Below are positions 5,741 to 63,568 of a stretch of DNA of 64,000 nt, one piece after another. The DNA comes from Patescibacteria group bacterium UBA3530 (GTDB lineage Bacteria > Patescibacteriota > Minisyncoccia > Phycocordibacterales > UBA2100). The stretch's first letter is position 1, and the number at the start of each line of letters is the position of its first letter. A program made the position numbers and the translations under genes. The stretch is from positions 1,620 through 65,619 of the forward strand of contig DFOX01000016.1 of NCBI GenBank assembly GCA_002376945.1, read 5' to 3'. The notes beneath the pieces were generated by a model, which was not told the origin of the DNA, ran no database searches, and was given only the letters and a program-made list of their open reading frames with translations.

Positions 5741-7354
5741 ATGGTAGAAATTGGCATGCATATATTTTCAAAAACCCGTCGTTTCGTGCGACGATATTGG
5801 AACACACCAACAAAAATTGCGCTTGTGGTACTTTTGGCATTTCTACTATTGGTCACTTTGCGTGTAATCATTACACGAGAAGCTGTCACTGATGCCGCCC
5901 CTGCTGTGCGCTCGGTAGTGGTGCTTCCCGCTGGAGTAAGTACTCAAAGTCGAGCTGGTATCGAAATAAGTGGAGAAGTTATGGCAACAACTCAAGGTGA
6001 TTTACGATCAAACAGTACCGGCATTGTTACCAATGTATATCAATCAGTATCAGATAACGTGGCGCGCGGGACAATTATCGCGACGATGGAAAATGCGGGA
6101 GAACGGGCTGGTGTTGCTCAGGCAAAGGCGGGAGTAGCTCAGGCGCAGGCAAACCTTAGCAAAGTATCGGGAGGAACACGCGAGGAGCAACTCGCGGTAC
6201 TTGCCGCTTCCACGCAAAGAGCACAGAGTGCGTACGAAGAGGCAGAGATTGGATTGCAAAATGCATTGATCAATGCGTACATTACCACCAACACGGCGTA
6301 CGCCGGCGGTGTGGATGCCATGTTTGACGATGCAGACAAAGCTAGTCCAAAGCTCAAGGTGACGACCGCCAATGGTAGTGACGCACTTGCTGCTGAGCAT
6401 GCACGGTTTCTCATTCAGGCAACCATCGAGCGACACGAGGAACTTTCACGACAGATACAGTTCATTTCCGGTGAGAATTTACTTCAAGAAGCTCGAAAAG
6501 TTGAAAAGGAAAATTTAACTATGAAGGCGGGGCTTGATGCGCTCATACGTGCCCTTAACGGAGCACCGCAGGACGTGAGTGCATACTTGACGATTGCAAA
6601 CACAGCACGTGCAAATGTGGTGCAAGCACGAACATCACTTGTATCAGCAAGAGGCGGATGGAGTGCGGCCGAGAGTGCACGTACCATAGCGCAAGAAAAC
6701 GAGGCGCTCGGAATTTCAGGTGCTCAATCAGAAGATATTGTAGTGGCAAAAGCGCAGCTTGCCGCAGCTCAAGCAACACTCTCACAAGCGTACGCACGAC
6801 TTGAAGATACCTATATACGAGCGCCCGTTGCCGGAACACTCACTCGCCTTTCCATTAAACCCGGTGATTTTGTGTCTGCGTATCAAGACGTTGGATTAGT
6901 TGCCAGTACGGGGTCGTATGAAATTGAGACATTTGTTTCTGTTCCAACTGCTCGGCAAATTGCAGTCGGTACCCCGGTACGCATTGAAGGACAGTATGAT
7001 GGAGTTGTCACCAGTATCGCCGAGAGTATTGATCCTGCAAAACGACAAATTGCAGTGAAAATTGCATTTACTGACACTGCAGTGGATGTACCTACCGGTA
7101 CCCGAGTGTCAGTTATCTTTATCGAAAACATAGATGGTACCGATGTCACTGTCCCGGTTTCAGCACTCAAATTAATTGGTGATGAGGCCTTCGTGTTTAC
7201 GATAGAAAACGGCCTATTGGTGGCGCTTCCTGTGGTATTGGGAGAGATTGCTCAAAATACAGTCGAAATTGTTTCAGGCATTAGTCGCACCACCATGATT
7301 GTAATCGATGCACGAGGATTTAATGAGGGAGATGCTGTGATAATTGCGCCATAG
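5741..7354 (+). CDS. Efflux periplasmic adaptor subunit (HlyD membrane-fusion-protein family)
   Basis: N-terminal TM anchor, an Ala/Gln-rich coiled-coil middle region, and a C-terminal 'RAPVAGTLTRLSIKPGDFV' beta-barrel motif. Its stop overlaps the RND pump gene start (7354/7357). Confidence 0.8.
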   Translation: MVEIGMHIFSKTRRFVRRYWNTPTKIALVVLLAFLLLVTLRVIITREAVTDAAPAVRSVVVLPAGVSTQSRAGIEISGEVMATTQGDLRSNSTGIVTNVYQSVSDNVARGTIIATMENAGERAGVAQAKAGVAQAQANLSKVSGGTREEQLAVLAASTQRAQSAYEEAEIGLQNALINAYITTNTAYAGGVDAMFDDADKASPKLKVTTANGSDALAAEHARFLIQATIERHEELSRQIQFISGENLLQEARKVEKENLTMKAGLDALIRALNGAPQDVSAYLTIANTARANVVQARTSLVSARGGWSAAESARTIAQENEALGISGAQSEDIVVAKAQLAAAQATLSQAYARLEDTYIRAPVAGTLTRLSIKPGDFVSAYQDVGLVASTGSYEIETFVSVPTARQIAVGTPVRIEGQYDGVVTSIAESIDPAKRQIAVKIAFTDTAVDVPTGTRVSVIFIENIDGTDVTVPVSALKLIGDEAFVFTIENGLLVALPVVLGEIAQNTVEIVSGISRTTMIVIDARGFNEGDAVIIAP

Positions 7355-7356
7355 TT

Positions 7357-10300: not shown

Positions 10301-10509
10301 AAATCGTGGTCAATGCAGCTGCGTCTCGTTTGCGACCGGTGCTACTCACCGCACTCACTACGGTAATTGGTGTCATTCCACTACTTTTTGCAGCCGCCAT
10401 TTGGGTACCGCTTGCGTATGCATTGATGTTTGGTCTTGCCTTTGCAACTATTATTACACTAGTGCTCGTTCCATCCATTTATGCACGGTGGCCGGGTAAG
10501 GATATTTAG
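7357..10509 (+). CDS. RND family efflux transporter permease (AcrB/AcrD/AcrF-like)
   Basis: 1050 aa with a 12-TM architecture and two large periplasmic loops, typical of RND pumps. Confidence 0.9.
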   Translation: MFNVWSFFTQRSRFAVIVIAAILFLGIGAIYNIPKESAPEVDVPIAIVSTVLPGASPEDVEQLVTNVLEEPLKNTLSDVRNITSTSGNGISTITVEFEANANLPKSMRSVRDEVDAAKIDLPDDALDPRIIEIDFGGDPVVTGTLSADIPNELLYTIAEDTADVLETIPGVSSVVLSGVTGKEVQVVIDTQALQQYGITVAHVTGAIAGANTSLPVGNIEIDGAEFPVRLAGDIESAEHVADTPILSLDGAPVYVRDVANVFVGREEPSSLSRTSLNNQPSNPSVSFEVFKSSSANITTVSTAVQEKLQNMQKEPGGLLENIAVHNMYDSGEELKSDLTTLTRSGMYTVLLVTLVLMIAVGWRESIIAAISIPLSFLTAFIGLAYSGNSLNFVSLFALILSIGIIVDSTIVIVEGINKKLHEMRRHQGETVQEVQSVKSHAALDVVREFHVPLTAGTMTTIAVFAPLFIVSGITGEFIKSIPFTIIFVLAASLLVALGFVPMIATKLLRRGSNAENAFVKKRENVTARFEALYRIYLTKLLSSREAENILFITLIALFVLTLALPVVGAVRVVFFEDSNSDYMILETSLPIGSVLSETDLEIRKAEEVLYTIPEATSFVTTVGSGSAFTNPFEGSPTGSARTANIFVNLDPKRKRNTTEILDDVRQKLEVIKTSDIRADQLSDGPPSLAPITITIYGDKFVDLEIAAAKVETVLKRIPGTADITSSVKDATSEFVFSINRDEVVALGADIRSIAGSLRVALYGEDITEIKQLGDDVDIVARVALDAEGVNRRYDTNITTLESLARVMVQTQSGVYPLATFIEVAVEPSRASIEHDNGTRIATVSSRIGAGGNALVITQQAQKLLASETLPEGVRLSFGGESEDIDQSFRDMFTALIIGVISMFAILVLQFNSFRFATYVLMIVPLSLIGVFLGLMITGNPLSFPSIMGFIALSGIVVNNSIILIDTINTERRTYANSKTMHEIVVNAAASRLRPVLLTALTTVIGVIPLLFAAAIWVPLAYALMFGLAFATIITLVLVPSIYARWPGKDI

Positions 10510-25466: not shown

Positions 25467-27080
25467 CTAGGTAAGGAATAATCTCGCCAATCGTAATTCA
25501 TCGTATGAATATCTTCCTCCCAGCGCCTTGTGAATCGGAGTCAGTGCAACTTTTCCAGACTCTTCAAACGCCATTTGTATCTCACGCATTACTTCCTCTT
25601 CTGGAGATAGATGTCGAAACACCATTGGGTCCAATCGCTCCAGATGCCCGATGATGGTCCCGACCGTCATGTTTCGCGCATGCGCTATCTCCTTTAAGCT
25701 CTTTTTCTCCTCCAGCAATAACTTTGTTTTCTCATAGGTGGAGAGCTTCTTCGAATCCACTAGGTTGCGAGCGATCTTTTTGATAAATGTGTTTTGCATC
25801 TCTTGGATTTTAGTGTCTGAGAGTTTTGCAAAAATGTGATCCCAATGCTCGGATTCAACTTGTAATCGTTCATCTAATCGCTTTACATACGGATGTATCT
25901 GCAATGCTGTTGCATTAATCCCGCGAAGCACCAGTCCCCTGAGGGTACGTGCGCGAGAGAGAGCTACATACCCTTGCCCGGGAGTGAACGCACGCGAAAG
26001 ATCAACCTCAACTGCATCCAAACTCATACCTTGACTCTTATGCACCGTGATTGCCCAAGCAAGTCTGAGGGGAATTTGTGAGACACTTGCGAGTACCTTG
26101 TTATCATCAGTTGTCTCCCACGAAACAGTACTTGCCACCACTTTTCGTCCATCATGTGTTTGTACAACGGGATATGCTCCCGCTAGATCAACAACTTCTC
26201 CAAGTGTTCCATTTACATACTCCTGTTCCGGATGATTTTTGACGAACATGACGTGTGCTCCCACTTTCAGCTCTAACACCTCCGGTGCGAGCACGCTCCT
26301 TTTAAGTGCGGTGACCAAATGAGCTCTTCCCGTTGAAGTCATTTCGAATTGATGCACATTAGTATTTAACTTTTGCAACTCAGTATTGTTCCGCTCATCC
26401 ACTCGTTCATTGTGTGTATGCAACACAACTGCTGATACACTCTCCTCCTCTTGTTGCTCATTCATTCGATTCTCTAATGATTCTTGTGTCATGTACGATA
26501 TTTCTCCACTTCGAATATCATTGAGTATAGTGAGGAGATCATCGTCCCGCTGTCGATATTGTTCGGTGAGGTAACATGTTCGAAAATCTCCATCGCGCCA
26601 GGAATGTGCAGCATCTGCAAACAGATCAGTGGACCCGTTTCTCACTACGGGTGGAAGTTGGAAGAAGTCGCCGGAGAGAATTACTTGCATACCGCCAAAG
26701 GGTTTCTCATTTTGCTTCATTACCTTAGCCACTTGATCCACCATATCGAGCAGTTCGGGCCTGAGCATTGAGATTTCATCGATAATCAGTACATCAGTTC
26801 TTTGATACCGCTTGAAAAGCGGTTGCCGCTGTATGAGTGCGTCAATATCCCATTCACTCAAATGTTCTTTGATTCCGATTCCAGACCACGCGTGGATCGT
26901 CATACCACCTAAGTGTGTTGCCGCTATGCCGGTTGATGCAGTGATTCCAACTCCCACATTATGCTTCTGCAAATACGCAATATACTGGTTGAGCACGTGC
27001 GTTTTGCCTGTTCCTGCCGCACCAGTTAGGTACACGTTACGGCCGGTCTTTAAAATGTTAAGTGTTGTTTCTTGCAACAT
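25467..27080 (-). CDS. RecD/PIF1-like ATP-dependent DNA helicase
   Basis: 'YLTGAAGTGKTHVL' Walker A and 'VLIIDEISML' Walker B, with a C-terminal UvrD_C-like region. Confidence 0.8.
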   Translation of the reverse strand: MLQETTLNILKTGRNVYLTGAAGTGKTHVLNQYIAYLQKHNVGVGITASTGIAATHLGGMTIHAWSGIGIKEHLSEWDIDALIQRQPLFKRYQRTDVLIIDEISMLRPELLDMVDQVAKVMKQNEKPFGGMQVILSGDFFQLPPVVRNGSTDLFADAAHSWRDGDFRTCYLTEQYRQRDDDLLTILNDIRSGEISYMTQESLENRMNEQQEEESVSAVVLHTHNERVDERNNTELQKLNTNVHQFEMTSTGRAHLVTALKRSVLAPEVLELKVGAHVMFVKNHPEQEYVNGTLGEVVDLAGAYPVVQTHDGRKVVASTVSWETTDDNKVLASVSQIPLRLAWAITVHKSQGMSLDAVEVDLSRAFTPGQGYVALSRARTLRGLVLRGINATALQIHPYVKRLDERLQVESEHWDHIFAKLSDTKIQEMQNTFIKKIARNLVDSKKLSTYEKTKLLLEEKKSLKEIAHARNMTVGTIIGHLERLDPMVFRHLSPEEEVMREIQMAFEESGKVALTPIHKALGGRYSYDELRLARLFLT

Positions 27081-50375: not shown

Positions 50376-51160
50376 AATGATTGAACGGTTACGAACCGCA
50401 CGGTCTGCAAATTCACCGGGACACGTACCTGTATCGTTTGGAAGGCATCGGTCGGTTGCGTTGTGATATTTCCCACGTACCCAATTATGGCACTATCTGC
50501 ACTGGGCAATACCACGGGGTCACCTACATACACGGGTACGTCGCGCGGCACCGCACCCTTAAAATTACCAAGACCAATCCCATCCAACACCACCGGAGAA
50601 ACTGTTTCCTCGTTAATTATCTGAGCTTCGATTCTATTCATCGGTGCTGAAAGCAATTGTATAATCGCAGTATTTTCGGTAATGCGCATAACAGTCCCGA
50701 TCAAAGCTCCATATTCTGCAAATACCGCGTCCCCCGTGGCGTACCCCTTGTTCTCAATGGCGAGCGTACCGTACGGAAACAGGGAAAGAGAGCTGCGTAC
50801 TGCAGAGACAGATCCCGTATCATCATTTGCACCCGCAAGATTTCGTAATGCGTCATTCTCTGATTGCAATATAACTTTTTGCAAGGCGTACCATTCAAGT
50901 TGCCGTACGCGTTCTTTGAGTGCATCCCTCTCCTGTATGAGCGCTTCTTTGTTCGCCACATATACGTACAATGGAGAAAGTGCTTGTCCAGCAGCGGCAT
51001 TAATTCCAAAGACGCCGACAGTTGATGGAGTGAGAAAATCACCAATCCGATTATTGGTAAGATAATTTACTGCAAACAGTATGGTTATACTAACAACAGA
51101 TAGGAGAAAGATTCGTCTCCTGATCGGAACCTTCTTTTTACTCGGTAGGTGAAAATTCAT
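50372..51160 (-). CDS. mreC: Rod shape-determining protein MreC
   Basis: N-terminal TM, a coiled-coil ('ERDALKERVRQLEWYALQK'), and C-terminal beta-domains. It overlaps mreB by 23 bp. Confidence 0.8.
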   Translation of the reverse strand: MNFHLPSKKKVPIRRRIFLLSVVSITILFAVNYLTNNRIGDFLTPSTVGVFGINAAAGQALSPLYVYVANKEALIQERDALKERVRQLEWYALQKVILQSENDALRNLAGANDDTGSVSAVRSSLSLFPYGTLAIENKGYATGDAVFAEYGALIGTVMRITENTAIIQLLSAPMNRIEAQIINEETVSPVVLDGIGLGNFKGAVPRDVPVYVGDPVVLPSADSAIIGYVGNITTQPTDAFQTIQVRVPVNLQTVRFVTVQSL

Positions 51161-52232
51161 GACTTTGTGTTATCAGCGCTTCGTGATATTTTGATAGATC
51201 TTCCAAAATCATTCCGGTTCCCTGTACCACTGCGGTAAGCGGATCATCCGGTACATATACCGGGACGCCCATATGCTCTCCAAGTAATTGCGAGAGTCCT
51301 CTGATAAGAGCGCCACCCCCTGCAAGATAAATCCCACGACGCATGACATCGGAAACTACTTCAGGTGGTGCAGTTTCGAGAACTTCTTTCACTGCATCAA
51401 CGAGTTGATCAACTGAGGCGGCAATTGCTTCTCGTATATCAGCATCAGTAATAATTACCTCTCTGGGAAGTCCGGTGACAAGATCACGTCCCCGAATAGT
51501 AGACTCAAGTGGTGTCTCTAAATCAAGTACGGATGCGGTGGCAATCTTTAACTCTTCTGCCGATTTCTTCCCAATCAGTATCTTAAATTCTCCCCGAATG
51601 TAGTTAATAATATCTTCATTAAGCTTATCCCCCGCAATGCGCACATTCTTTGCACTGACCAAACCGCCAAGCGAAATGATGCCAATATCGGTAGTTCCTC
51701 CCCCAATATCTATCACCATAGATCCCGAAGGTTCACTAACCGGGAGACGTATACCGATTGCCGCTGCCATCGGTTCTTCAACGATAAACACTTCTCGTGC
51801 TCCCGCATTCTTTGCAGCATCTTGTACGGCGCGAACTTGCACTGACGTAATGCCTGAGGGTACGCCAATAACAACTCGAGGTCCTAAAAAGCGAGTTTTT
51901 CCATCCTGCGCTTTTCGTATCAAATATCCGAGCATTTCTTCAGTAACCTCAAAGTCTGAAATGACTCCATCGACCAAGGGCTGTATCGCAACTACGTGCG
52001 CGGGAGTTCGTCCAAGCATATTCTTTGCATCTGCTCCAACTGCAACCACTTGCCCTGTTTTTTGATTAAGTGCAACCATTGATGGCTCGTTTAATACAAT
52101 TCCCTGCCCATTCACATATACCAAGGTATTCGCCGTTCCCAAATCAATTCCAATATCATCAGACACAAGATTTGAGAGCTTGTCTTTGATTGTATCTGTC
52201 CATCCGCGCACTCGATTCATATATCTATTCAT
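51138..52232 (-). CDS. mreB: Rod shape-determining protein MreB (actin homologue)
   Basis: 'IGIDLGTANTLVYV', 'VIDIGGGTTDI', and 'YLAGGGALIRGL' actin-fold phosphate and adenosine motifs. Confidence 0.95.
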   Translation of the reverse strand: MNRYMNRVRGWTDTIKDKLSNLVSDDIGIDLGTANTLVYVNGQGIVLNEPSMVALNQKTGQVVAVGADAKNMLGRTPAHVVAIQPLVDGVISDFEVTEEMLGYLIRKAQDGKTRFLGPRVVIGVPSGITSVQVRAVQDAAKNAGAREVFIVEEPMAAAIGIRLPVSEPSGSMVIDIGGGTTDIGIISLGGLVSAKNVRIAGDKLNEDIINYIRGEFKILIGKKSAEELKIATASVLDLETPLESTIRGRDLVTGLPREVIITDADIREAIAASVDQLVDAVKEVLETAPPEVVSDVMRRGIYLAGGGALIRGLSQLLGEHMGVPVYVPDDPLTAVVQGTGMILEDLSKYHEALITQSHEFSPTE

Positions 52233-55340: not shown

Positions 55341-55976
55341 CTATCTAACTCTTGGTAGCGTAAGTGCAACACTCTCCAACAGTGTCTTAAGTGAAGCACC
55401 TTTGTTGTGCAACACTCTCCTCACTGCAAACAAATGCGTAATACTCGCATCCCGCTCACCTTTTTGATACACAACGGTCTCGATATCTTGCAAAAGCGCA
55501 TCAGCTGCTGCAATGTTCTTGTCTTTGATAATCTTGTCCAAAATATGCATTCGCTTTTTAGGTTGAGCTGCAAGAAAGACAGCACCCTCGTTTTCAACTT
55601 CACCAGATGAAGCTACGAGTACTTGTGAGCGTGATAGTAGTGTGGGTAAAATGTCACCCAACGTTGAAACGCACAAAAAGAAGTGTGTTCGCTCTGGGGG
55701 CTCTTCAAAAAGTTTTAGCAATGCATTTTGCGCTTCCGATGAAAATGTACGTATTTTGTATACGAATATCTGTATTCCAACAGATCGCATGTTGGCCAGC
55801 TGTATTAACTCGCGACTATCATCAATGCCTAAAGAATCGAGTTCACGAACATACAATTCTGCGTCGGCATGTACTTCTTGCAACACGCCCGGAAGCTGAG
55901 CGAAAATATTGTCATTATCTTCTATAAAATATGCGTGGTATGGTGCTTTTATTTTCAACGACTCGAGTGCATCCAT
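55341..55976 (-). CDS. holB: DNA polymerase III delta-prime-like clamp-loader subunit, truncated (no P-loop)
   Basis: 'LLKLFEEPPERTHFFLCVSTLGDILPTLLSRSQVL' matches the delta-prime/RFC box VII and sensor-2 region. The Walker A motif is absent. Confidence 0.55.
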   Translation of the reverse strand: MDALESLKIKAPYHAYFIEDNDNIFAQLPGVLQEVHADAELYVRELDSLGIDDSRELIQLANMRSVGIQIFVYKIRTFSSEAQNALLKLFEEPPERTHFFLCVSTLGDILPTLLSRSQVLVASSGEVENEGAVFLAAQPKKRMHILDKIIKDKNIAAADALLQDIETVVYQKGERDASITHLFAVRRVLHNKGASLKTLLESVALTLPRVR

Positions 55977-55977
55977 A

Positions 55978-56997
55978 TTATCTCTTTGAAAGAATCGCTT
56001 TTTTGTACACGTCCAAATGCTGTAAAGCGATTCCTGTTCCTTTTGCCACACTGTACAATGCGTCATCTGTCAACGCCGCTTTCACACCCGTTCGACGATA
56101 TACCAACTCGGGAAGGTTTCGCAACTGACTCGACCCTCCCGACATGATAATGCCGTTGTCGATAATATCAGCGGCAAGTTCCGGAGGGGTGTCCTGTAAC
56201 ACATCTCGTATCGCTTTCACAATTTCCCGAAGCTCTCTCCCGATTGCCTTCACCACCTCATTTGTTGAAAGCTCTACTGAACGAGGTAGGCCCGTGAGAT
56301 AGTCGCGTCCCTTGATGGTCATGACCAATTCTTCTTCAAGGGGTATTGCAGAACCTACGTGCACTTTTATCTCTTCCGCGGTTTTGTCTCCAATGGCTAA
56401 ATTAAATGTCTTCTTCACGTGCGCGGTAATTGCCTCGTCAATCCTATTCCCCGCACATTTCACAGAAGTTGAAGCAACAATGCCTCCCAGAGAAATCACC
56501 GCGACATCTGTCGTTCCTCCACCAATGTCTACAATCATGTGTCCTCGAGCTTCGTGAATGGGAATACCCGCCCCAATGGCGGCGAGAATAGGTTCTTTTA
56601 CCACTTGCGCCGTTTTTGCTCCTGCTTTTACCGCGGCAGTAATGACTGCTCGTCGTTCAGCTGAAGTTACCCCTGCGGGAACTGAAATCATCACATCAGG
56701 TTTAAAAATACTCCACCAGTGGGTTGCTTTGCGCATGTAGTATCGTAACATCGCTTCTGTTACGCGATAATCAGCAATAACTCCATCTTTCATGGGACGA
56801 TACGCGATAATATCTTCCGGAGTTCGTCCAATCATTTCCTTTGCTTCATCTCCCACAGCCAAGATTTTGTTCTCTTGTTCGGATACGGCTACCACCGAAG
56901 GTTCCCGAAGAACCACTCCGCGACCAGGTGCGTATATAAGTGTATACGTGGTTCCTAGATCAATTCCCAGTTTTGGTTTTGCTAAAAAATGCATCAT
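55978..56997 (-). CDS. Second MreB-like actin homologue (paralogue)
   Basis: 'LGIDLGTTYTLIYA', 'IVDIGGGTTDVAVI', and 'IIMSGGSSQLRNL'. Confidence 0.85.
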   Translation of the reverse strand: MMHFLAKPKLGIDLGTTYTLIYAPGRGVVLREPSVVAVSEQENKILAVGDEAKEMIGRTPEDIIAYRPMKDGVIADYRVTEAMLRYYMRKATHWWSIFKPDVMISVPAGVTSAERRAVITAAVKAGAKTAQVVKEPILAAIGAGIPIHEARGHMIVDIGGGTTDVAVISLGGIVASTSVKCAGNRIDEAITAHVKKTFNLAIGDKTAEEIKVHVGSAIPLEEELVMTIKGRDYLTGLPRSVELSTNEVVKAIGRELREIVKAIRDVLQDTPPELAADIIDNGIIMSGGSSQLRNLPELVYRRTGVKAALTDDALYSVAKGTGIALQHLDVYKKAILSKR

Positions 56998-57401: not shown

Positions 57402-58151
57402 ATGTTTAGTGTGCGCATAAAGAAATATATTTTATATGTGGGCGGAGTGATTGCCGCTCTCGTGCTTCTCCTCGGTGCTTTGAGTCAAGCGGGATTTGTT
57501 GTCTCCGGCGCATATATTGTCAAAGGAGGAACGCTTACGATCACCTCTGCATATCCTGACAGTATTGTGTTTATCGATAATCGACAAGTAGGACGTGTGG
57601 CTGCTGATGGCACTTTTTCAAAATATCCAGTGAAGCCGGGTAAGCGATCAATAATACTCTCGCACACCACCTCATGGCCGTGGATGTACACCGTGAATAT
57701 GCAGTCTCGGAAGAACATTAGTATCGCCCCCCTTCAAATTACCAAAGATCCAATAAGATCTCTTCTTACCGCATCAGATGATCCGTTACTACTCTCTGCA
57801 AACAGTGCTCTCTCTGATTATCGAGAACCAACGAGACCACAACCTCTCGAGAGAAATCGGCGTTTGGTATGGGTTGAAGGCACAACCATTTACACACAGG
57901 AAAACGATACTGTCCGCAGCGTCATCTCTATCCAAAGTCCGATTACATCAGTGTTTTGGTATGGAGATCGTGAAGACGCGATCATTGTATCGGCCAGAAA
58001 TGCAGTATTTGCTCTTGATTTACGCTATGGTGGAGCACAAAACTACCTTCCGCTTTATACCGGCACCAAACCGCAAGCTGTAGCAGATCCAATACGTTCA
58101 AATATCATCTACGTAAAAGATGCGGGAGATATTTTCACTCTCGATATCTAA
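57402..58151 (+). CDS. Membrane-anchored protein with a PEGA-like domain, unknown function
   Basis: N-terminal TM ('ILYVGGVIAALVLLLGAL') and a PEGA-like 'IVFIDNRQVGRVAADGTFSKYPVKPGKRSIIL'. Confidence 0.5.
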   Translation: MFSVRIKKYILYVGGVIAALVLLLGALSQAGFVVSGAYIVKGGTLTITSAYPDSIVFIDNRQVGRVAADGTFSKYPVKPGKRSIILSHTTSWPWMYTVNMQSRKNISIAPLQITKDPIRSLLTASDDPLLLSANSALSDYREPTRPQPLERNRRLVWVEGTTIYTQENDTVRSVISIQSPITSVFWYGDREDAIIVSARNAVFALDLRYGGAQNYLPLYTGTKPQAVADPIRSNIIYVKDAGDIFTLDI

Positions 58152-59662
58152 AGGTCATTCACTATCTCCACTTTTGCGCCAAGCTCTCGCAATCGTTCAG
58201 CAATACGTTCATAGCCGCGTTCGATTGAATAGACGTTCCGCAAAACCGAGACTCCCTCAGCGGCAAGCATTGCCAGGAGAATCACTACCGCAGGGCGAAG
58301 TGCCGGAGGACACACAACCTGTGCGGCTTTTAGTGTGGTTGGTCCGCTTACGAAGACTCTATGTGGATCAGCAAGTTTAATATCTGCTCCCAATCGATTC
58401 AGTTCAGTGAAGTAGAGTGCGCGTTCCTCCCATACCCAATCATGAATAAGAGTCGTTCCCTTGGCCTGTGTGGCGATTGGTACAAAGAAGGGAAGGTTGT
58501 CAATATTCAAACCAGGATACGGCAGAGGGTGAATCTTAATCGGGGAGGATTCGAGTGCAGGAGTGTGCATTTGTATATCAACAAGTTTTGTTTTTCCATT
58601 CCGTGCAAAATACGGTGCACTTTTCTCATATGATACTCCCATGTACGAGAGTTTGAGAAGTTCGATCTCCAGAAAATCAATAGGGCATCTTTCTATACGC
58701 AATTCAGACTGAGTAACAATTGATGCCGTGATGAACATCATTGCCTCAATGGGATCCTCGCTATTGTAATGAGTTACTTCCTTTTCTATTTCCTCAACTC
58801 CGTAGACCGATAAGGTGGTCGTACCAACTCCTTCCACACGAACTCCGAATTGTTGTAAGAGAAAGCAAACATCTTGTACTTGATAGTTTGGCGGCGCGTA
58901 TTTTATCACACTCTTTCCCGGGATGAGTGCGGCGATAAATAGCGCATTGATAGCGGCCGTATCACTTGCTTCATACATCACCACTTCAGCTGTGTGTAGT
59001 TTTTTTCTTGCACAAGCATAATGATTTTCATGTGTTGTAATGCGCGCACCAAATGCTTCAAGTACATGTTTGTGTGCTGCAATGGTACGATCGCCCATAG
59101 CACAACCGCCGGCATGCGGAAGGGTGAATTCTTTTTTGTTGTGCAAGAGCGGACCTAACAGCATAAGCACTGATCGCATCTTTCCTGCGGATTCAGCGGC
59201 AATATCTTGAATTTTGAATCGCTTTGGAGGTGTTATCTTCAGTGTATTCTTATCAGTGTTCTCAACACTAATACCGATACTTTTAAATACTTCGATCATT
59301 CTATGAATCTCCTCAATGCGCGGTATGCCATGCAGTGTCGTTGTACCGCGATTAAGCAAAGCGCCACACATTAGTGCGAGCGCTCCGTTTTTTGAAGTAT
59401 TGGTGATAGCAGTTCCGTGCAATTTATGCCCGCCCTCCACACTAAAATCAACTCCCTCTTTAATTCCCACAATTTGATGTTGTAATACGTCGCTCACTTT
59501 TAGTAACTGCGTGGTTGAAAGATTCTGGTCTCCCTTCTCCATACGAGCAACTGCGGATTGTGAAGTGCCGAGAGCATCAGCAAATTCTTTTTGTGTAAGA
59601 TTTTTCTTTTGGCGAAGTTCTCTGATGAACGTTCCAATCTTTTTATGCGATTCGTTTGTCAT
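58148..59662 (-). CDS. murA: XRE-type HTH domain fused to UDP-N-acetylglucosamine 1-carboxyvinyltransferase (MurA)
   Basis: The first ~60 aa ('IGTFIRELRQKKNLTQKEFADALGTSQSAVARMEKG') form a Cro/C1 HTH. The rest is MurA, including the active-site loop 'LPHAGGCAMGDR' with the catalytic Cys. Confidence 0.85.
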   Translation of the reverse strand: MTNESHKKIGTFIRELRQKKNLTQKEFADALGTSQSAVARMEKGDQNLSTTQLLKVSDVLQHQIVGIKEGVDFSVEGGHKLHGTAITNTSKNGALALMCGALLNRGTTTLHGIPRIEEIHRMIEVFKSIGISVENTDKNTLKITPPKRFKIQDIAAESAGKMRSVLMLLGPLLHNKKEFTLPHAGGCAMGDRTIAAHKHVLEAFGARITTHENHYACARKKLHTAEVVMYEASDTAAINALFIAALIPGKSVIKYAPPNYQVQDVCFLLQQFGVRVEGVGTTTLSVYGVEEIEKEVTHYNSEDPIEAMMFITASIVTQSELRIERCPIDFLEIELLKLSYMGVSYEKSAPYFARNGKTKLVDIQMHTPALESSPIKIHPLPYPGLNIDNLPFFVPIATQAKGTTLIHDWVWEERALYFTELNRLGADIKLADPHRVFVSGPTTLKAAQVVCPPALRPAVVILLAMLAAEGVSVLRNVYSIERGYERIAERLRELGAKVEIVNDL

Positions 59663-59726
59663 ATATCATATATGATATCACGCATTGACTTTGTCTAGTC
59701 ACTATTCCACATATATACTGGCAATC

Positions 59727-61610
59727 ATGTTTATCGTTCACGTCGCACCAATTCAAAAGCGCGCTATGGATCGGCTCACTTATTTTTCGGCCGAAGATCT
59801 TCCCATTGGATCTGTGGTAACAATTCCCCTGCGTAAAAAAGAGGTGCCGGCTTTGGTTCTCGCAACTGAAGACGCACAATCAATAAAGGCGGTTTTGCGA
59901 TCGAATATTTTTGAGATGAAGAAGCTGCCAAAACAAAAGGCACGCGCACTGTTTCTTCCCTCTTTCTTGCGAGCACTTGATACTACCGCCCAACATTTTG
60001 TCGCATCTCGCGGCGCTCTTTTGGAGCGATATGCACCGACTGCTATTGTAGCAGCAGCACAAAGAGGGGGTGTATGCTCTCCGAGCGAAACAAACAATGC
60101 CACCACTTTTAAGCAACACGTTCTCCAACTGTCACTCACCGAACGCATTGAAAAATACAAAACACTTATACGTAGTAATTTTGCACACGGCAACTCTGTT
60201 TTCGTGTGTGTACCAACCATACACCGGGCTCAATTTCTTGGTGAACAATGCAGTCGCGGTATTGAACAATATACATTCATACTCGAAAGCTCCCAGACAA
60301 AGAAGAAGCAGGTAGAAACATGGAATGCAATTCTTAGGGAGCGTCATCCGGTAGTGGTAATCGCAACGCCAGCATTTTTGAGTATACCGCGCGGTGATGT
60401 CTCCTTGTTCATTCTAGAGCAGGAAATGGCATCTTCATACAAACAACACTCTGTTCCTTTTTCAGACGCACGTACATTAGTCAAAGCGCTTGCTCGAGAG
60501 ATACCGGCATCGATTCTGTATGCTGGAACCACGGTGAGTACTCGTGTGCATAAGGAGATGCATGATGGGTTCGCTACTGCGCTTGAAGAACATGCACGAA
60601 AACTACGTACGACGAGCTCTGTACAAATTATTGATGCGAAAAAATCACGTGCACAGGCCGACAGAGAGTTTCCGGTACTTACCAACGAATCTCTACAACT
60701 ACTCGCCTCATGCACAAAGGAACGAGGAAATATTTTTGTATTCGCTGCCCGCAGGGGTATCGCCACACAAACCGTGTGCAACGATTGTAGCTTGCCAGTG
60801 AAATGTCCTTCCTGTAAATCATCTCTTGTTTTGCACGAACAACGAGGAATTCGAGAACTGCTCTGTCATCGCTGCGGAATCGCACAAGACGCTCACACAC
60901 GATGTGTCCATTGTGATAGCTGGAACCTTGTACCGTTGGGTATTGGTATTGAGCGAATCGAGGCATATGTGAAGAAACACTTACCGGATACGCCCCTCTT
61001 TGTTATTACCAGCGACCGCACCAAAACGCCAAAGCAGGCGCTTGAAGTAGTTACAAAATTCTACCAAACACCCGGGAGCATACTTATCGGAACTGAAATG
61101 GCACTGTCACACCTCACCTTGCCAATATCGTGTAGTGTGGTGAGTTCTATTGATTCTCTGCTATGCATACCTGATTTTGGTATTGAGGAGAAAATATTCG
61201 GAATTATCGCTACTTTACGAGAGCGCACAAATCGCATTCTTCTCATCGAAACAGCCAATATCCAAAACGCAATGCTTGAGTATGCAACAACCGGAGCACT
61301 TTCAGAATACGCTGATACAGAATTACGGCTGCGAAAAAAGTTGCGCTACCCGCCATATGTCACCCTCATACAAGTTGCGTGTATCGGTACTCGCGCAAAG
61401 GTGATCGACGATATGCAATCATTTGTGGAGATTACAAAGAAATACACACCTCGCGTGTTCTCCGGATTCATTCCCAGGGGTCGTCATGTGGAATTGCGGG
61501 CACTCATTAAAATTTCGACTGAGCAATGGCCTGATTCTGAACTTGTCGGTATTTTGCACTCGCTTCCGCACTCATTTACCATAACCGTTGATCCTGAGAG
61601 AATGTTGTAA
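59727..61610 (+). CDS. priA: Primosomal protein N' (PriA)-like, with degenerate ATPase motifs
   Basis: N-terminal 3'-DNA-binding-domain-like 'IGSVVTIPLRKKEVPALVL', a retained 'SSYKQ' motif, and a C-terminal C4 zinc-binding cluster ('CNDCSLPVKCPSCK...CHRCG...CVHCDS'). There is no GSGKTE Walker A, and DEEH is replaced by LEQE. Confidence 0.7.
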   Translation: MFIVHVAPIQKRAMDRLTYFSAEDLPIGSVVTIPLRKKEVPALVLATEDAQSIKAVLRSNIFEMKKLPKQKARALFLPSFLRALDTTAQHFVASRGALLERYAPTAIVAAAQRGGVCSPSETNNATTFKQHVLQLSLTERIEKYKTLIRSNFAHGNSVFVCVPTIHRAQFLGEQCSRGIEQYTFILESSQTKKKQVETWNAILRERHPVVVIATPAFLSIPRGDVSLFILEQEMASSYKQHSVPFSDARTLVKALAREIPASILYAGTTVSTRVHKEMHDGFATALEEHARKLRTTSSVQIIDAKKSRAQADREFPVLTNESLQLLASCTKERGNIFVFAARRGIATQTVCNDCSLPVKCPSCKSSLVLHEQRGIRELLCHRCGIAQDAHTRCVHCDSWNLVPLGIGIERIEAYVKKHLPDTPLFVITSDRTKTPKQALEVVTKFYQTPGSILIGTEMALSHLTLPISCSVVSSIDSLLCIPDFGIEEKIFGIIATLRERTNRILLIETANIQNAMLEYATTGALSEYADTELRLRKKLRYPPYVTLIQVACIGTRAKVIDDMQSFVEITKKYTPRVFSGFIPRGRHVELRALIKISTEQWPDSELVGILHSLPHSFTITVDPERML

Positions 61611-61674: not shown

Positions 61675-62202
61675 ATGAGAGCAATTGTATACAGAGGAGA
61701 TTCGATATTGCAGCGCATTGCAGAAGAAGTCCCTTTGTCAGAAATAGACAGCGCACAGATACACGAAGTAATACAAGATATGAAAACCACGCTGCACCGA
61801 GAAAAATTCGGTGTTGCCATTGCTGCTCCGCAAATTGGTATTTCTTTGAGAATATTCGTGGTTGGTGGACATGTCTTTGCATCACGAAGCGGTGAAGAAT
61901 TCGATCCCAAAGTACACAAGGATCACGTTTTTATAAATCCGGAGATCGTGAAAGCATCAAAAAAGACTGTGATTGGAGACGAGGGTTGTCTTTCGGTTCC
62001 GGGAAAGTATGGGACCAAAGTTAAGCGAAGCGAAAAGGTAACGATTCTCTACTATGATGAGCGGGGCAAGTGTCACACACGTGGTGCGTCAAGCTTTTTG
62101 TCACGTATCTTTCAGCATGAAATTGATCATCTCAACGGCATTCTTTATATCGACAATGCTATTGAAGTTATCGATGTAGATGATGAATTAAAACCTATTT
62201 AG
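61675..62202 (+). CDS. def: Peptide deformylase
   Basis: 'GVAIAAPQIG', 'EGCLSVPG', and 'HEIDHLNG'. Confidence 0.9.
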   Translation: MRAIVYRGDSILQRIAEEVPLSEIDSAQIHEVIQDMKTTLHREKFGVAIAAPQIGISLRIFVVGGHVFASRSGEEFDPKVHKDHVFINPEIVKASKKTVIGDEGCLSVPGKYGTKVKRSEKVTILYYDERGKCHTRGASSFLSRIFQHEIDHLNGILYIDNAIEVIDVDDELKPI

Positions 62203-62686
62203 AAAATTCGTGTGATAATTGATCATACTCTTGGGTATCATACACACAAATGCCATTCTCGTGCCAAAGCACAAATTCCGCCAATCCAACATCAAGGGAC
62301 ATTTTGCTGCAGATAGTGCAATATGGTTTTCCAGATTTGAGTATGTGCCCATGAGCATCAACTCGAGTAAAATATATGCGTGCTCCGGTTAATTCATTAG
62401 GATTAGTATGTAATGCATCCATTATAGCTCGTTGTTCAGCGTGTATACAGCACGTTTTATCGGTAATTTTTTCCTCATATGTTTGCTTTTCTTTATCACA
62501 ATATCGGTGACTCTCAAATTCACCCGGAGGACTATTAAAACCCGCGCCTATAACGTGGTTATTTTTTACAATAATACTTCCACACCGTGCTCGAGTACAT
62601 GTCGCAGCAGAAGCTATCAATGCCGCTTGTTCCATGTATGCACTTGCTCTCCTTTCTTCTGCCCCTTTTAGATATTTCATTATCAC
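62195..62686 (-). CDS. Cytidine/deoxycytidylate deaminase family protein
   Basis: 'CIHAEQRAI' (H-A-E zinc motif) and 'PCTICS' (PCxxC). It converges with def, overlapping by 8 bp. Confidence 0.8.
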   Translation of the reverse strand: MIMKYLKGAEERRASAYMEQAALIASAATCTRARCGSIIVKNNHVIGAGFNSPPGEFESHRYCDKEKQTYEEKITDKTCCIHAEQRAIMDALHTNPNELTGARIYFTRVDAHGHILKSGKPYCTICSKMSLDVGLAEFVLWHENGICVYDTQEYDQLSHEFSK

Positions 62687-62710: not shown

Positions 62711-63568
62711 ATGAATACTAACATACAATTTGTCTTCTTTGGGACACCAAAGCTCGCAACCATCGTGCTTGACGAACTCAAGAAAAGGGATCTGCTTCCC
62801 GCTCTTGTGGTTACTGCACCCGACAGACCTGCGGGTCGTGGTATGCAAGTGGCAGCTTCGCCCGTTAAAGAATGGGCTCAAAAGCACAATATACCCACCA
62901 TTGAACCTGAGACGTTTGATGCACGTGCTGTGGAACGTATTCAATCTGTATCAGCGGACGTGTTCGTACTTGCAGCATATGGGAAGATCCTTCCACAAAC
63001 AATTATCACTATGCCCGCATTAGGTATTCTCAATGTACATCCATCACTCCTTCCGAAATTGCGTGGCCCTTCTCCGATACGAAGTGCAATACGTGAAGAT
63101 CATAGAACTGTCGGGGTTTCGATTATGTTACTTGACGAGAAGATGGATCACGGACCAATTCTTAAGCAGGAAGAATATACTCCAGCAGTATGGCCACCCA
63201 GCGCACAAGAACTTGGCGACTATCTCTTTCTCCGCGGAGGTTCACTACTTGCCGATGTGCTTCCCGCATATATTCAAGGAGAAGTTACCGCAATCCCGCA
63301 AGATGATGCAAAAGCCACCTATTGCCACCTTTTCAAGAAGGAAGATGGTGAGTTACATTTTGACGATGACCCCTATACAAACCTTCTTAAAATTCATGCG
63401 TATCAAGGATGGCCTGGTACGTACTTCTTTACCGAAACTGGTGTACGGGTGAAAGTTATCTCAGCGCATATGGAAAACACCTCACTCATAATCGATGAGG
63501 TGGTTCCGGAAGGCAAGAACAAAATGTCCTATACTGATTTTATTTCCAAAAGCGAAGCATCTTCTTAA
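62711..63568 (+). CDS. fmt: Methionyl-tRNA formyltransferase
   Basis: 'IQFVFFGTP', 'ILNVHPSLLPKLRGPSPI' (SLLP motif), and a C-terminal Fmt domain. Confidence 0.9.
   Translation: MNTNIQFVFFGTPKLATIVLDELKKRDLLPALVVTAPDRPAGRGMQVAASPVKEWAQKHNIPTIEPETFDARAVERIQSVSADVFVLAAYGKILPQTIITMPALGILNVHPSLLPKLRGPSPIRSAIREDHRTVGVSIMLLDEKMDHGPILKQEEYTPAVWPPSAQELGDYLFLRGGSLLADVLPAYIQGEVTAIPQDDAKATYCHLFKKEDGELHFDDDPYTNLLKIHAYQGWPGTYFFTETGVRVKVISAHMENTSLIIDEVVPEGKNKMSYTDFISKSEASS

What the first reader, a model, noticed from the sequence alone, without database searches (positions are those of the whole stretch)
59727..61610. PriA-like protein that keeps DNA-binding and zinc-finger modules but has lost the ATPase signature motifs
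The protein aligns with PriA in the N-terminal 3'-DNA-binding domain, the 'SSYKQ' region and the C-terminal Cys4 zinc cluster. The Walker A motif (GxGKT) is absent and the DExH box reads LEQE. That predicts a helicase-dead PriA that may act only as a replication-restart scaffold or loader.
Basis: partly seen in the sequence, partly recalled or inferred. Interest (0 to 1): 0.5.

Follow-up and report, generated by a model that had tools for sequence, protein, structure and literature searches.

The report
Naturally helicase-dead PriA of Parcubacteria
This gene encodes the replication-restart protein PriA of an ultra-small marine bacterium (Patescibacteria), and in this whole lineage the protein has kept its DNA-fork-binding and zinc-binding parts but lost every ATP-binding motif, so it is a conserved "pseudohelicase", a kind so far described only in Deinococcus-Thermus.

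Summary
Window 59727-61610 (+) is one intact ORF of 627 aa. It aligns end to end with canonical PriA (hhalign probability 100%, E 8.7e-92). Its AlphaFold model (pLDDT 89) matches E. coli PriA structures (TM 0.79). The next family, Mfd, reaches only TM 0.37.

- **Lost:** Walker A (GxTGSGKT reads LQLSLTER, Lys to Arg), Walker B (DEEH reads EQEM), motif III and motif VI (GRAGR deleted). The motif-Q segment is absent.
- **Kept:** the 3' DNA-binding domain, motifs Ia, IV and V, the SSYKQ loop, all eight zinc cysteines and the C-terminal domain.

This is not decay. All 336 full-length relatives examined share the same form (Arg at the Lys position in 334 of 336). A scan found relatives in 426 species genomes. 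dN/dS between close pairs is 0.01-0.18. The priA-def-fmt gene order is conserved.

The clade is monophyletic (200 of 200 bootstraps) within Paceibacteria/Parcubacteria. Other candidate-phyla-radiation (CPR) lineages, Berkelbacteria and Gracilibacteria, keep a canonical PriA. A second, differently degenerate clade also turned up.

The most likely role is an ATP-independent fork-recognition and helicase-loading scaffold, like E. coli PriA K230R and Deinococcus radiodurans PriA. This is a new member of a known kind and of moderate interest.

The parts
59727..61610 (+). priA gene, pseudohelicase form ('type A'), 627 aa plus stop codon
   Evidence: ORF list. TIGR00595 E 2.3e-63. hhalign against canonical PriA probability 100%. 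AF2 model pLDDT 89.1. Foldseek best match is E. coli PriA 8fak_H, TM 0.79.
59691..59719 (+). Promoter-like site TTGTCT-17-TATACT. Its -10 element ends 7 nt before the ATG, so the mRNA may be leaderless. This argues against the upstream TTG start at 59685.
   Evidence: Consensus scan only. Sequence. Homologues start at the same Met.
59727..60062 (+). N-terminal 3' DNA-binding domain (residues 1-112). Y19 (E. coli Y18) and K65 (E. coli K61) are near-invariant in the clade. A short linker follows directly, and there is no winged-helix domain.
   Evidence: Pfam PF17764 weak hit, 17.4 bits. hhalign aligns from residue 1. Conservation. Only 27 residues lie between the 3' DNA-binding domain and the Walker A position, against 119 in E. 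coli.
60108..60716 (+). RecA-like helicase lobe 1 (residues 128-330) with a dead nucleotide site. It is as conserved as the other domains.
   Evidence: AF2 secondary structure. Mean pairwise identity 0.38, against 0.35-0.47 for the other domains.
60114..60158 (+). Walker A equivalent QHVLQLSLTERIEKY (residues 130-144). All P-loop glycines are lost, K230 is R140 and T231 is I141. The model shows an extra helical turn in place of the loop.
   Evidence: Arg in 334 of 336 relatives; an acidic residue at the G229 position in 307 of 336. DSSP: strand 130-134, helix from 137.
60408..60446 (+). Walker B equivalent plus the start of the aromatic-rich loop: FIL-EQEM-A-SSYKQ (residues 228-240). DEEH reads EQEM. 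Only the E322 equivalent (E233) is kept clade-wide.
   Evidence: E322 kept in 322 of 336; the E321 position is R/K/H in 263 of 336. Y238 and R249 of the loop are kept.
60522..60536 (+). Motif III equivalent AGTTV (residues 266-270). SAT-P is lost (GDxL in most relatives).
60717..61262 (+). RecA-like helicase lobe 2 (residues 331-512), carrying the cysteine-rich region insertion.
   Evidence: hhalign. AF2 and Foldseek.
60750..60758 (+). Motif IV, RRG (residues 342-344), retained.
   Evidence: R427 kept in 329 of 336 and G429 in 334 of 336.
60777..60926 (+). Cysteine-rich region (CRR, residues 351-400). All eight zinc cysteines are retained. D353 corresponds to E. coli D438. W399 is clade-invariant and sits at E. 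coli T482, a PriB-docking residue.
   Evidence: Pfam PF18319 weak hit. Cysteines kept in 95-100% of relatives. D438 kept in 327 of 336 and T482 is Trp in 332 of 336. PriB-docking residues are from PMC10175261.
61083..61103 (+). Motif V, LIGTEMA (residues 453-459). G-T is retained and Q540 is Glu.
   Evidence: G538 kept in 319 of 336, T539 in 335 of 336, and Q540 is Glu in 310 of 336.
61194..61229 (+). Motif VI remnant IFGIIATLRERT (residues 490-501). Q580 is lost and the five residues carrying G583, R584 and G586 are deleted.
   Evidence: gap in 336 of 336.
61263..61607 (+). C-terminal domain (residues 513-627), including the invariant R536 and P542-P543 (E. coli R625, P631-P632).
   Evidence: hhalign runs to the last residue. 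Conservation.
61675..62202 (+). def (peptide deformylase), a conserved downstream neighbour.
   Evidence: Pfam PF01327 E 6.8e-45. Downstream of priA in 69 of 80 related loci.
62711..63568 (+). fmt (methionyl-tRNA formyltransferase), a conserved downstream neighbour.
   Evidence: Pfam PF00551 and PF02911. Present in 67 of 80 related loci.
58148..59662 (-). XRE-HTH::MurA fusion gene, divergent from priA and a frequent neighbour.
   Evidence: Pfam PF01381 plus PF00275. A murA homologue lies next to priA in 64 of 80 related loci.

Best explanation
This is the orthologous, single-copy priA gene of a marine Patescibacterium of the Kaiserbacteria/Paceibacteria group. The lineage has turned it into a pseudohelicase.

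**Shown by the sequence:**
- The two RecA-like lobes are kept as a folded scaffold.
- Every element that binds or hydrolyses ATP is substituted or deleted. This covers the motif-Q segment, the P-loop, the catalytic part of Walker B, motif III and the motif VI arginine fingers.
- The elements that in E. coli PriA contact fork DNA or partner proteins are conserved under strong purifying selection. These are the 3'-end-binding domain, motifs Ia, IV and V, the SSYKQ/aromatic loop that wedges at the fork junction, the two-zinc cysteine-rich region (CRR) and the C-terminal domain.

**Inferred mechanism:**
1. The protein recognises an abandoned fork or D-loop through the 3' DNA-binding domain and the lobes.
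2. It clamps single-stranded lagging-strand template between the CRR, lobe 2 and the C-terminal domain, without using ATP.
3. The CRR surface, which carries a clade-invariant Trp where E. coli docks PriB, recruits the replicative helicase DnaB directly or through a loader or SSB.
4. Because it cannot unwind, it should act only on forks whose lagging-strand template is already single-stranded. Forks with a duplex lagging arm would need another enzyme.
5. The conserved charged cluster at the old active site (acidic-acidic-Arg140 facing E231 and E233, and in most relatives Arg or Lys at the position that is Q232 in this protein) probably forms salt bridges that hold the site together in place of Mg-ATP.
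For: **Orthology**
- Full-length profile alignment to canonical PriA.
- Foldseek best hits are all PriA, including the fork-bound 8FAK state (TM 0.79) and the E. coli winged-helix-deletion protein 6DCR (TM 0.73).
- The priA-def-fmt order is conserved in 67-69 of 80 loci.
- There is no second PriA-like ORF in the window.

**Dead ATPase**
- The K230R substitution alone abolishes E. coli PriA ATPase and helicase activity (PMC4504706 introduction; PMC5778457).
- The model replaces the P-loop with a helical turn.

**Maintained function**
- 336 of 336 full-length relatives share the form, with pairwise identity as low as 26%.
- A scan found relatives in 426 GTDB species genomes.
- dN/dS is 0.01-0.18.
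- Lobe 1 is as conserved as the DNA-binding domains.
- The DNA and partner elements are retained.

**Precedent for ATP-independent restart**
- priA300 (K230R) cells behave much like wild type, and the PriA-PriB pathway does not need the helicase (PMC5778457, PMC10175261).
- D. radiodurans PriA binds ssDNA, forks and DnaB without ATPase activity (PMC4504706).
- CRR rotation around ssDNA needs a single-stranded lagging strand, not unwinding (PMC13594977).
Against:
- Loss of nucleotide binding is predicted from sequence and a model. I could not inspect the model's coordinates, so the salt-bridge idea is untested.
- Only 64 kb of the genome, plus 10 kb flanks of relatives, was searched. An intact second priA elsewhere in these genomes is not formally excluded.
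- The partners (DnaB, DciA or another loader, SSB) were not located.
- The slightly better fit of the model to the fork-bound E. coli state may only reflect the absent or poorly resolved winged-helix domain in that entry.
Confidence: 0.8

Rival explanations
1. The protein is a specialised paralogue. An intact, ATP-hydrolysing PriA encoded elsewhere in the same genome does the real restart work.
For: Only the 64-kb window and 6-10 kb flanks of related loci were searched. The genome scan used a pattern specific to this clade (G[SAG][IV]L[IVL]GTE[MF]A), so it could not have found a canonical copy.
Against: The gene sits in a priA-def-fmt arrangement that is conserved across the related loci, as expected of the resident priA. 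There are no extra PriA hits in the window. These genomes are about 0.6-0.75 Mb (contig lengths), and from general knowledge PriA is normally single-copy. Canonical CPR PriAs recovered carry names from other lineages (Berkelbacteria, Gracilibacteria), not Paceibacteria.
Confidence: 0.05
2. The protein still binds, and perhaps hydrolyses, a nucleotide through a non-canonical site. The conserved Arg140, E231 and E233 would act as catalytic residues rather than structural ones.
For: The substituted site is itself strongly conserved: Arg in 334 of 336, E322-equivalent in 322 of 336, Q134 in about 97%. A second, weaker nucleotide site has been proposed for E. coli PriA (PMC5778457).
Against: All P-loop glycines are replaced, mostly by Asp or Glu, which would repel phosphate. 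The loop is modelled as helix. The motif-Q segment and the motif VI arginine fingers are deleted. K230R alone kills E. coli PriA ATPase activity (PMC5778457).
Confidence: 0.04
3. The protein was re-purposed away from replication restart, for example as a structure-specific DNA-binding factor in recombination, competence or origin-independent initiation. It would use the PriA fold only as a fork or D-loop reader.
For: The residue at the E. coli PriB-docking position T482 has become an invariant Trp, and H483 varies. This indicates a different partner surface. Restart partners known from E. coli (PriB, DnaT) were not seen in the window ORFs scanned.
Against: According to PMC5778457, PriB and DnaT are absent from most bacteria and PriA is the only restart protein conserved across bacterial phyla. 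D. radiodurans PriA, also a pseudohelicase, binds DnaB (PMC4504706). All fork-reading modules are kept, which is what restart needs.
Confidence: 0.08
4. The gene is a decaying pseudogene or an assembly or annotation artefact.
For: Pfam domain hits are below threshold. The gene caller records no Pfam family. Many database copies are named 'hypothetical protein'.
Against: The ORF is intact at 627 aa. The identical protein occurs on 9 independent contigs. Relatives in 78 of 80 related loci are 620-680 aa long. dN/dS is 0.01-0.18. The model is confident, with pLDDT 89.
Confidence: 0.01
5. It belongs to a different SF2 family (RecG, Mfd or ComFA-like) that only resembles PriA.
For: SF2 helicase cores resemble one another. 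Mfd and DEAD-box proteins appear lower in the fold search.
Against: PriA structures score E 1e-30 to 1e-40 and TM 0.63-0.79, against Mfd at 3e-11 and TM 0.37. The only NCBIfam hits are PriA models, apart from one insignificant match to YacG at E 0.12. The 3' DNA-binding domain, the CRR insertion and the C-terminal domain are PriA-specific and align end to end.
Confidence: 0.01

Closest known systems
Deinococcus radiodurans / Deinococcus-Thermus PriA pseudohelicase (Lopper et al. 2015, PMC4504706)
   Same: A natural PriA orthologue whose Walker A lysine is replaced by arginine and whose Walker A and B boxes match the consensus poorly. The trait is lineage-wide. The Deinococcus protein has been shown to lack ATPase and helicase activity while still binding ssDNA, forks and DnaB. 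That is the behaviour predicted here.
   Different: The lineage is an unrelated phylum (Patescibacteria, not Deinococcota). By taxonomy this looks like an independent loss, but I could not test it because no Deinococcus sequence was available to me. Here motifs III and VI and the motif-Q segment are also lost or deleted, and no winged-helix domain is present. The activity of the protein here is untested.
E. coli PriA K230R (priA300) and K230A/D engineered variants (PMC5778457)
   Same: The same Lys-to-Arg change at the P-loop lysine. The variants have no ATPase, helicase or translocase activity but are proficient in primosome assembly and in PriA-PriB-dependent restart. They provide the functional model for a scaffold-only PriA.
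   Different: These are laboratory point mutants in an otherwise canonical protein. They need PriB and DnaT, which are restricted to some proteobacteria. The natural protein here has remodelled the whole nucleotide site.
Canonical PriA (E. coli / Klebsiella; PDB 8FAK, 4NL4, 6DGD)
   Same: Same order of the shared domains and same fold (TM 0.69-0.79). Also shared are the 3' DNA-binding domain, two RecA lobes, a two-zinc CRR inside lobe 2, the C-terminal domain, motifs Ia, IV and V, the SSYKQ loop, and invariant residues R625, P631 and P632.
   Different: About 21% sequence identity. No winged-helix domain. Motifs Q, I, II, III and VI are lost. The PriB-docking residues T482 and H483 are replaced (Trp, and Asn/Arg/Lys).
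E. coli PriA winged-helix deletion protein (PDB 6DCR)
   Same: Second-best structural match (TM 0.73). It shares the architecture in which the 3' DNA-binding domain leads straight into lobe 1.
   Different: It is an engineered deletion of an active helicase. Natural winged-helix-less PriAs with intact motifs also exist in CPR (Berkelbacteria P0367, Gracilibacteria P0380), so loss of the winged helix is not tied to loss of the ATPase.
'Type B' degenerate PriA of other Parcubacteria
   Same: CPR PriAs of about 630 aa without P-loop glycines and without motif VI arginines. They keep the 3' DNA-binding domain, the CRR and the C-terminal domain.
   Different: A different substitution pattern. The lysine is kept (E-[DN]-K-I), the first three Walker B residues D-E-E are kept (DEE[DE]), SSYKQ reads ENHKQEE, and motif III is partly kept. 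These proteins score lower against the window protein (76-128 bits) than canonical PriAs do (median 118 bits). A common origin of the two degenerate forms has only 54% NJ bootstrap support.

Membership tests
PriA (primosomal protein N', replication restart protein; TIGR00595 / PRK05580) | N-terminal 3' DNA-binding domain (PF17764) | tested here: met
   hhalign aligns from residue 1. The window protein's own Pfam hit is below threshold (17.4 against 22.7 bits), but PF17764 is on record for many clade members. Y18 and K61 equivalents are near-invariant. The fold is confirmed by AF2 and Foldseek.
PriA (primosomal protein N', replication restart protein; TIGR00595 / PRK05580) | Two RecA-like SF2 lobes with the PriA topology, followed by the PriA C-terminal domain | tested here: met
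   Foldseek: 8fak_H E 2.8e-40, TM 0.79; 4nl4 TM 0.69; the next family, Mfd, TM 0.37. hhalign covers 617 columns to the C-terminus.
PriA (primosomal protein N', replication restart protein; TIGR00595 / PRK05580) | Cysteine-rich region with eight zinc-binding cysteines inserted in lobe 2 | tested here: met
   C351, C354, C360, C363, C380, C383, C393 and C396 align with E. coli C436-C479 and are kept in 95-100% of 336 relatives.
PriA (primosomal protein N', replication restart protein; TIGR00595 / PRK05580) | SF2 ATPase motifs (Q, I/Walker A, II/DExH, III, VI) | tested here: not met
   All are substituted or deleted. This fails the 'helicase' part of the family definition, not the homology.
PriA (primosomal protein N', replication restart protein; TIGR00595 / PRK05580) | Score at or above the curated equivalog cut-off (TIGR00595, 230.35 bits) | tested here: not met
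   214.5 bits. Only 8 of 52 clade members reach about the cut-off.
PriA (primosomal protein N', replication restart protein; TIGR00595 / PRK05580) | Winged-helix domain between the 3' DNA-binding domain and lobe 1 | tested here: not met
   27 residues against 119 in E. coli. Canonical CPR PriAs with intact motifs also lack it (45-50 residues), so it is not a universal defining feature.
PriA (primosomal protein N', replication restart protein; TIGR00595 / PRK05580) | Conserved chromosomal context across the related loci, as expected of a resident single-copy priA (priA-def-fmt) | tested here: met
   def lies downstream in 69 of 80 related loci and fmt in 67 of 80. The same order is present in the window.
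PriA pseudohelicase (kind defined by D. radiodurans PriA, PMC4504706) | Clearly derived from PriA, with the Walker A lysine replaced (Lys to Arg) and degenerate Walker A and B boxes, as a lineage-wide trait | tested here: met
   R140 is at the K230 position (Arg in 334 of 336). DEEH reads EQEM. The clade is monophyletic in 200 of 200 bootstraps.
PriA pseudohelicase (kind defined by D. radiodurans PriA, PMC4504706) | No ATP hydrolysis and no duplex unwinding in vitro | not testable with these tools
   Predicted from motif loss only.
PriA pseudohelicase (kind defined by D. radiodurans PriA, PMC4504706) | Retains ssDNA and fork binding, and binds the cognate DnaB | not testable with these tools
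   Indirect only. The DNA-contacting modules and the CRR are conserved under purifying selection.
PriA pseudohelicase (kind defined by D. radiodurans PriA, PMC4504706) | Common descent with the Deinococcus-Thermus proteins | not tested
Taxonomy (Patescibacteria against Deinococcota), and the NJ tree placing the clade among sequences that include named CPR PriAs, suggest an independent origin.

The most novel reading that the evidence does not exclude
The remodelled nucleotide site may not be a mere scar. It could be a new, selected device: a conserved charge cluster (Q134, acidic-acidic-R140, E231, E233, plus a basic residue in most relatives at the position that is Q232 here) that mimics the nucleotide-bound state. 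This would lock the two lobes and the cysteine-rich region in the fork-clamping, partner-recruiting conformation. PriA of Parcubacteria would then be a constitutive, ATP-independent helicase-loading platform with a new partner surface around the invariant Trp399. Together with the second degenerate clade found here, this would mean a major bacterial radiation, a sizeable fraction of known PriA diversity, restarts replication without any PriA motor. The task of clearing the lagging strand would fall to another enzyme or be dispensed with.
Probability: 0.15. Interest if true: 0.65.

Novelty: new member of a known kind. Interest (0 to 1): 0.42.

Why it matters
[quoted passage not shown] This locus shows a second and much larger natural experiment. 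A deep, species-rich clade of Patescibacteria has a PriA with no ATP site but conserved fork-reading and zinc modules. I examined at least 336 representative sequences, and a scan found relatives in 426 species genomes. A sister set of lineages has a differently degenerate form.

If confirmed biochemically, three things follow:
- The essential, ancestral job of PriA would be fork recognition and helicase recruitment, not unwinding.
- These proteins would be a minimal, naturally motor-less PriA for structural work on how DnaB is recruited without PriB or DnaT.
- It would raise the question of how ultra-small symbionts deal with forks whose lagging arm is duplex.

There is also a practical annotation point. 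Most of these proteins fall below the NCBIfam equivalog cut-off and have no Pfam hits above the curated cut-offs. They are often labelled 'hypothetical protein', so gene-content surveys may wrongly score PriA as absent from these genomes.

I found no paper in the searchable library that mentions PriA together with Patescibacteria, Parcubacteria or CPR in this sense. That is absence in that library only.

Tried and rejected
- **Upstream TTG start at 59685.** Rejected. Homologues begin at the ATG-equivalent Met, and a promoter-like -10 element ends 7 nt before the ATG.
- **Second PriA in the window.** A tblastn with E. coli PriA and with the window protein found only this gene, plus a weak UvrB helicase-domain hit.
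- **Hidden P-loop elsewhere in the protein.** A regex scan of 340 sequences found only six chance matches at unrelated positions.
- **Winged-helix loss coupled to ATPase loss.** Rejected. Canonical CPR PriAs with intact motifs also lack the winged helix.
- **One ancestral loss for both degenerate CPR clades.** Unresolved. NJ bootstrap support is 108 of 200, and type B scores lower against the window protein than canonical PriAs do.
- **Counting the clade from the 1.84-billion-protein search.** The 1,299 hits at E <= 1e-30 are only an upper bound, because canonical PriAs reach up to 157 bits against this query.
- **SSB-tail pocket conservation.** The residue numbers I recalled from memory did not match the E. 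coli sequence, so I dropped the analysis.
- **AFDB fold search for more organism names.** The library was unavailable.
- **Cluster look-up for names.** It added almost nothing.
- **Deinococcus-Thermus PriA sequences.** None could be obtained, so a direct comparison was not possible.
- **tRNA and Rfam scans of the window.** Only four tRNAs, none relevant.
Full report
**1. What is at the coordinates.** Window 59727-61610 (+) is a single intact ORF of 627 codons that starts at an ATG.
- A longer reading from a TTG at 59685 is unlikely. Homologues begin at the equivalent Met, and a promoter-like TTGTCT-17-TATACT ends 7 nt before the ATG.
- The identical protein is in public data, on nine contigs including a 153,664-bp Tara Oceans scaffold.
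- The surrounding genes are ordinary chromosome genes of a Patescibacterium. They include leuS, ychF, ddl, uvrCAB, dnaX, serS, dprA, topA, relA/spoT, parB, the mraZ-rsmH-ftsI-mur cluster, mreBCD, proS, rseP, frr and holB, and then HTH-murA (divergent), priA, def, a deaminase and fmt.

**2. It is PriA.**
- NCBIfam hits are, with one insignificant exception, PriA models. The best is TIGR00595 at E 2.3e-63 and 214.5 bits, just under the 230.35-bit equivalog cut-off.
- Pfam gives only sub-threshold hits, to the PriA cysteine-rich region (CRR) and to the 3' DNA-binding domain.
- phmmer against the PDB finds only PriA chains (E 1e-28).
- A profile of 52 relatives aligns with a profile of 26 canonical PriAs over 617 columns, from the first to the last residue, at probability 100% and E 8.7e-92.
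- An AlphaFold2 model built from the alignment is confident (pLDDT 89.1, pTM 0.86). Its best PDB matches are all PriA: fork- and PriB-bound E. coli PriA 8FAK (E 2.8e-40, TM 0.79), the E. coli winged-helix-deletion protein 6DCR (TM 0.73) and Klebsiella PriA 4NL4 (TM 0.69). The next family, Mfd, has E 3e-11 and TM 0.37.

**3. The motifs.** Registers below come from the profile alignment and several MAFFT alignments.

| Element | E. coli PriA | This protein |
|---|---|---|
| Walker A | G224-V-T-G-S-G-K230-T231 | Q134-L-S-L-T-E139-R140-I141 |
| Walker B | D320-E-E-H323 | E231-Q232-E233-M234 |
| Motif III | S-A-T-P | G-T-T-V |
| Motif VI | Q-V-A-G-R-A-G-R | A-T-L-----R (GRAGR deleted) |

- About 20 residues that carry the canonical invariant Gln (Q203) ahead of strand 1 are missing.
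- In the model the P-loop is replaced by an extra helical turn (strand 130-134, helix from 137).
- I checked 57 positions that are invariant or nearly so in canonical PriA. The positions lost are those known to contact ATP or to couple hydrolysis. This assignment of roles rests on established SF2 helicase knowledge.
- The positions kept are Y234, P253 (motif Ia), E322, R380, R427-R428-G429 (motif IV), the eight CRR cysteines with H455 and H464, G490, G538-T539 (motif V), E572, R625 and P631-P632.
- The SSYKQ loop is partly kept (Y238, K239, R249). In E. coli this loop wedges into the fork junction (PMC10175261).
- Y18 and K61 of the 3' DNA-binding domain are kept. Their role in 3'-end binding is from my memory of the literature and was not checked here.

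**4. It is a conserved state, not decay.**
- All 120 best hits in the 5.8-billion-protein search share the form. So do all 150 best cluster representatives in the exhaustive HMMER search, and the PriAs of 80 species-representative genomes.
- Across 336 full-length sequences, whose pairwise identity falls as low as 26%, Arg is at the Lys position in 334. An acidic residue is at the G229 position in 307, and Glu is kept at E322 in 322.
- No sequence has a Walker A at the aligned position.
- The GTDB scan found 426 species genomes encoding a relative. The named ones are Kaiser-, Yonath-, Campbell-, Taylor-, Vogel- and Lloydbacteria and Paceibacterota/Parcubacteria.
- Close pairs give dN/dS of 0.01-0.18.
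- Lobe 1, which holds the dead site, is as conserved (0.38 mean pairwise identity) as the 3' DNA-binding domain (0.36) and the C-terminal domain (0.35).
- def follows priA in 69 of 80 loci and fmt in 67 of 80. A murA homologue is adjacent in 64 of 80.

**5. Where the clade sits.**
- Walking out from a peripheral member (P0080) reached canonical PriAs across a clear score gap: at least 198 bits inside the clade and at most 121 bits outside.
- From one of those hits (P0286) I found two further groups:
  - A second degenerate clade, 'type B', in Falkowbacteria, Buchananbacteria and other Parcubacteria, with a different pattern. The lysine is kept but no glycines remain, Walker B reads DEE[DE], SSYKQ reads ENHKQEE, and motif VI is lost.
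  - Canonical PriAs with all motifs intact in other candidate-phyla-radiation (CPR) lineages (Berkelbacteria, Gracilibacteria).
- Those canonical CPR proteins also lack the winged-helix domain. Its absence here is a lineage trait and is unrelated to the loss of the ATPase.
- In a neighbour-joining tree the window's clade ('type A') is monophyletic in 200 of 200 bootstraps, on a long stem.
- Whether types A and B share one loss is unresolved. Bootstrap support for a joint clade is 108 of 200, and type B scores lower against the window protein than canonical PriAs do.

**6. How it most likely works.**
- What is shown: the protein is the resident PriA, it keeps the fork-reading and zinc modules under purifying selection, and it has no recognisable nucleotide site.
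- What is inferred: it acts as an ATP-independent fork-recognition and helicase-recruitment scaffold.
- The inference rests on three published results:
  - E. coli PriA K230R loses ATPase, helicase and translocase activity, yet supports primosome assembly and PriA-PriB restart (PMC5778457, PMC4504706).
  - D. radiodurans PriA carries the same Lys-to-Arg change. It has no ATPase or helicase activity but binds ssDNA, forks and DnaB (PMC4504706).
  - In E. coli the CRR rotates to encircle single-stranded lagging-strand template and expose the partner-docking surface, whereas a duplex lagging arm must first be unwound (PMC10175261, PMC13594977).
- At the E. coli PriB-docking residues, D438 is kept (D353). 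T482 is an invariant Trp (W399, 332 of 336), and H483 varies. That suggests a conserved but different partner surface.
- The conserved charge pattern at the old active site suggests salt bridges that replace Mg-ATP. I could not check this because the model's coordinates are not exposed.
- The model fits the fork-bound E. coli state slightly better than the apo states. This is only a hint.

**7. Comparison with what is known, and novelty.**
- The kind, a PriA pseudohelicase, is known from Deinococcus-Thermus (PMC4504706). The 2018 review treats that as the sole exception to helicase conservation (PMC5778457).
- The present protein meets the sequence-level criteria of that kind. It comes from an unrelated phylum, degenerates further (motifs Q, III and VI as well), and represents a very large radiation.
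- Three full-text searches found no paper linking PriA with Patescibacteria, Parcubacteria or CPR in this sense.
- I therefore rate it a new member of a known kind, of moderate interest.
- A practical consequence concerns annotation. Only 8 of 52 clade members reach about the TIGR00595 cut-off. The gene caller records no Pfam family for this protein, and many database copies are named 'hypothetical protein'. Surveys may therefore miss PriA in these genomes.

**8. Limits.**
- No activity was measured.
- A second, intact priA elsewhere in these genomes is unlikely but not excluded.
- Partners were not identified.
- The number of independent losses within CPR, and the relation to the Deinococcus-Thermus proteins, remain open.

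Noticed in passing
Related proteins P0286, P0302-P0362; not in the window: A second, differently degenerate PriA clade in other CPR lineages (named members: Falkowbacteria, Buchananbacteria, 'Parcubacteria bacterium'). The Walker A lysine is kept but all glycines are lost (LLxYxxxE[DN]KI). Walker B reads DEE[DE], SSYKQ reads ENHKQEE, and the motif VI arginines are lost. Canonical PriAs occur in Berkelbacteria (P0367) and Gracilibacteria (P0380).
   Followed up: partly
window 25467-27080 (-): A PIF1-like SF1 helicase with an intact GTGKT P-loop and a C-terminal HTH_40 domain lies next to uvrB/uvrA. In principle it is a candidate for DNA-unwinding tasks that the dead PriA cannot do, but it is not linked to priA.
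   Followed up: partly
window 58148-59662 (-): MurA (UDP-GlcNAc enolpyruvyl transferase) carries an N-terminal XRE-type helix-turn-helix domain. A murA homologue lies next to priA in 64 of 80 related loci, in either orientation.
   Followed up: partly
window 59691-59726 (+): The promoter-like -10 element ends only 7 nt before the priA ATG and no Shine-Dalgarno sequence is evident, so the priA mRNA may be leaderless. This rests on a consensus match only.
   Followed up: no
window 62195-62680 (-): A dCMP/cytidine deaminase gene on the opposite strand is wedged between def and fmt and overlaps the end of def by 8 nt. In many of the related loci def and fmt are almost contiguous.
   Followed up: no
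window 51138-52232 (-) and 55978-56997 (-): Two MreB paralogues, together with mreC, mreD and a PBP2-type transpeptidase, in an ultra-small bacterium. holB (DNA polymerase III delta') sits between frr and the second mreB (about 55341-55976, -).
   Followed up: no
window 5741-10509 (+): An AcrB-family RND transporter (1050 aa, E 1.3e-170) is preceded by a HlyD-like adaptor. No outer-membrane component is evident in the window.
   Followed up: no
window 57402-58151 (+): A 249-aa ORF with an N-terminal hydrophobic segment and no Pfam match. A homologue lies upstream of murA or priA in 13 of 80 related loci.
   Followed up: no
L082 14780-21884 (just beyond the right end of the window on the Tara scaffold): A large serine recombinase, several ORFs without a recorded family, a MerR/HTH_17 regulator and an N6/N4 DNA methyltransferase. 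This may be an integrated mobile element or prophage remnant.
   Followed up: no
window 59727-61610 and clade members: There is an annotation gap. The protein scores 214.5 bits against a 230.35-bit TIGR00595 cut-off. Only 8 of 52 relatives reach about the cut-off, and the gene caller lists no Pfam family. Many public copies are named 'hypothetical protein'.
   Followed up: yes
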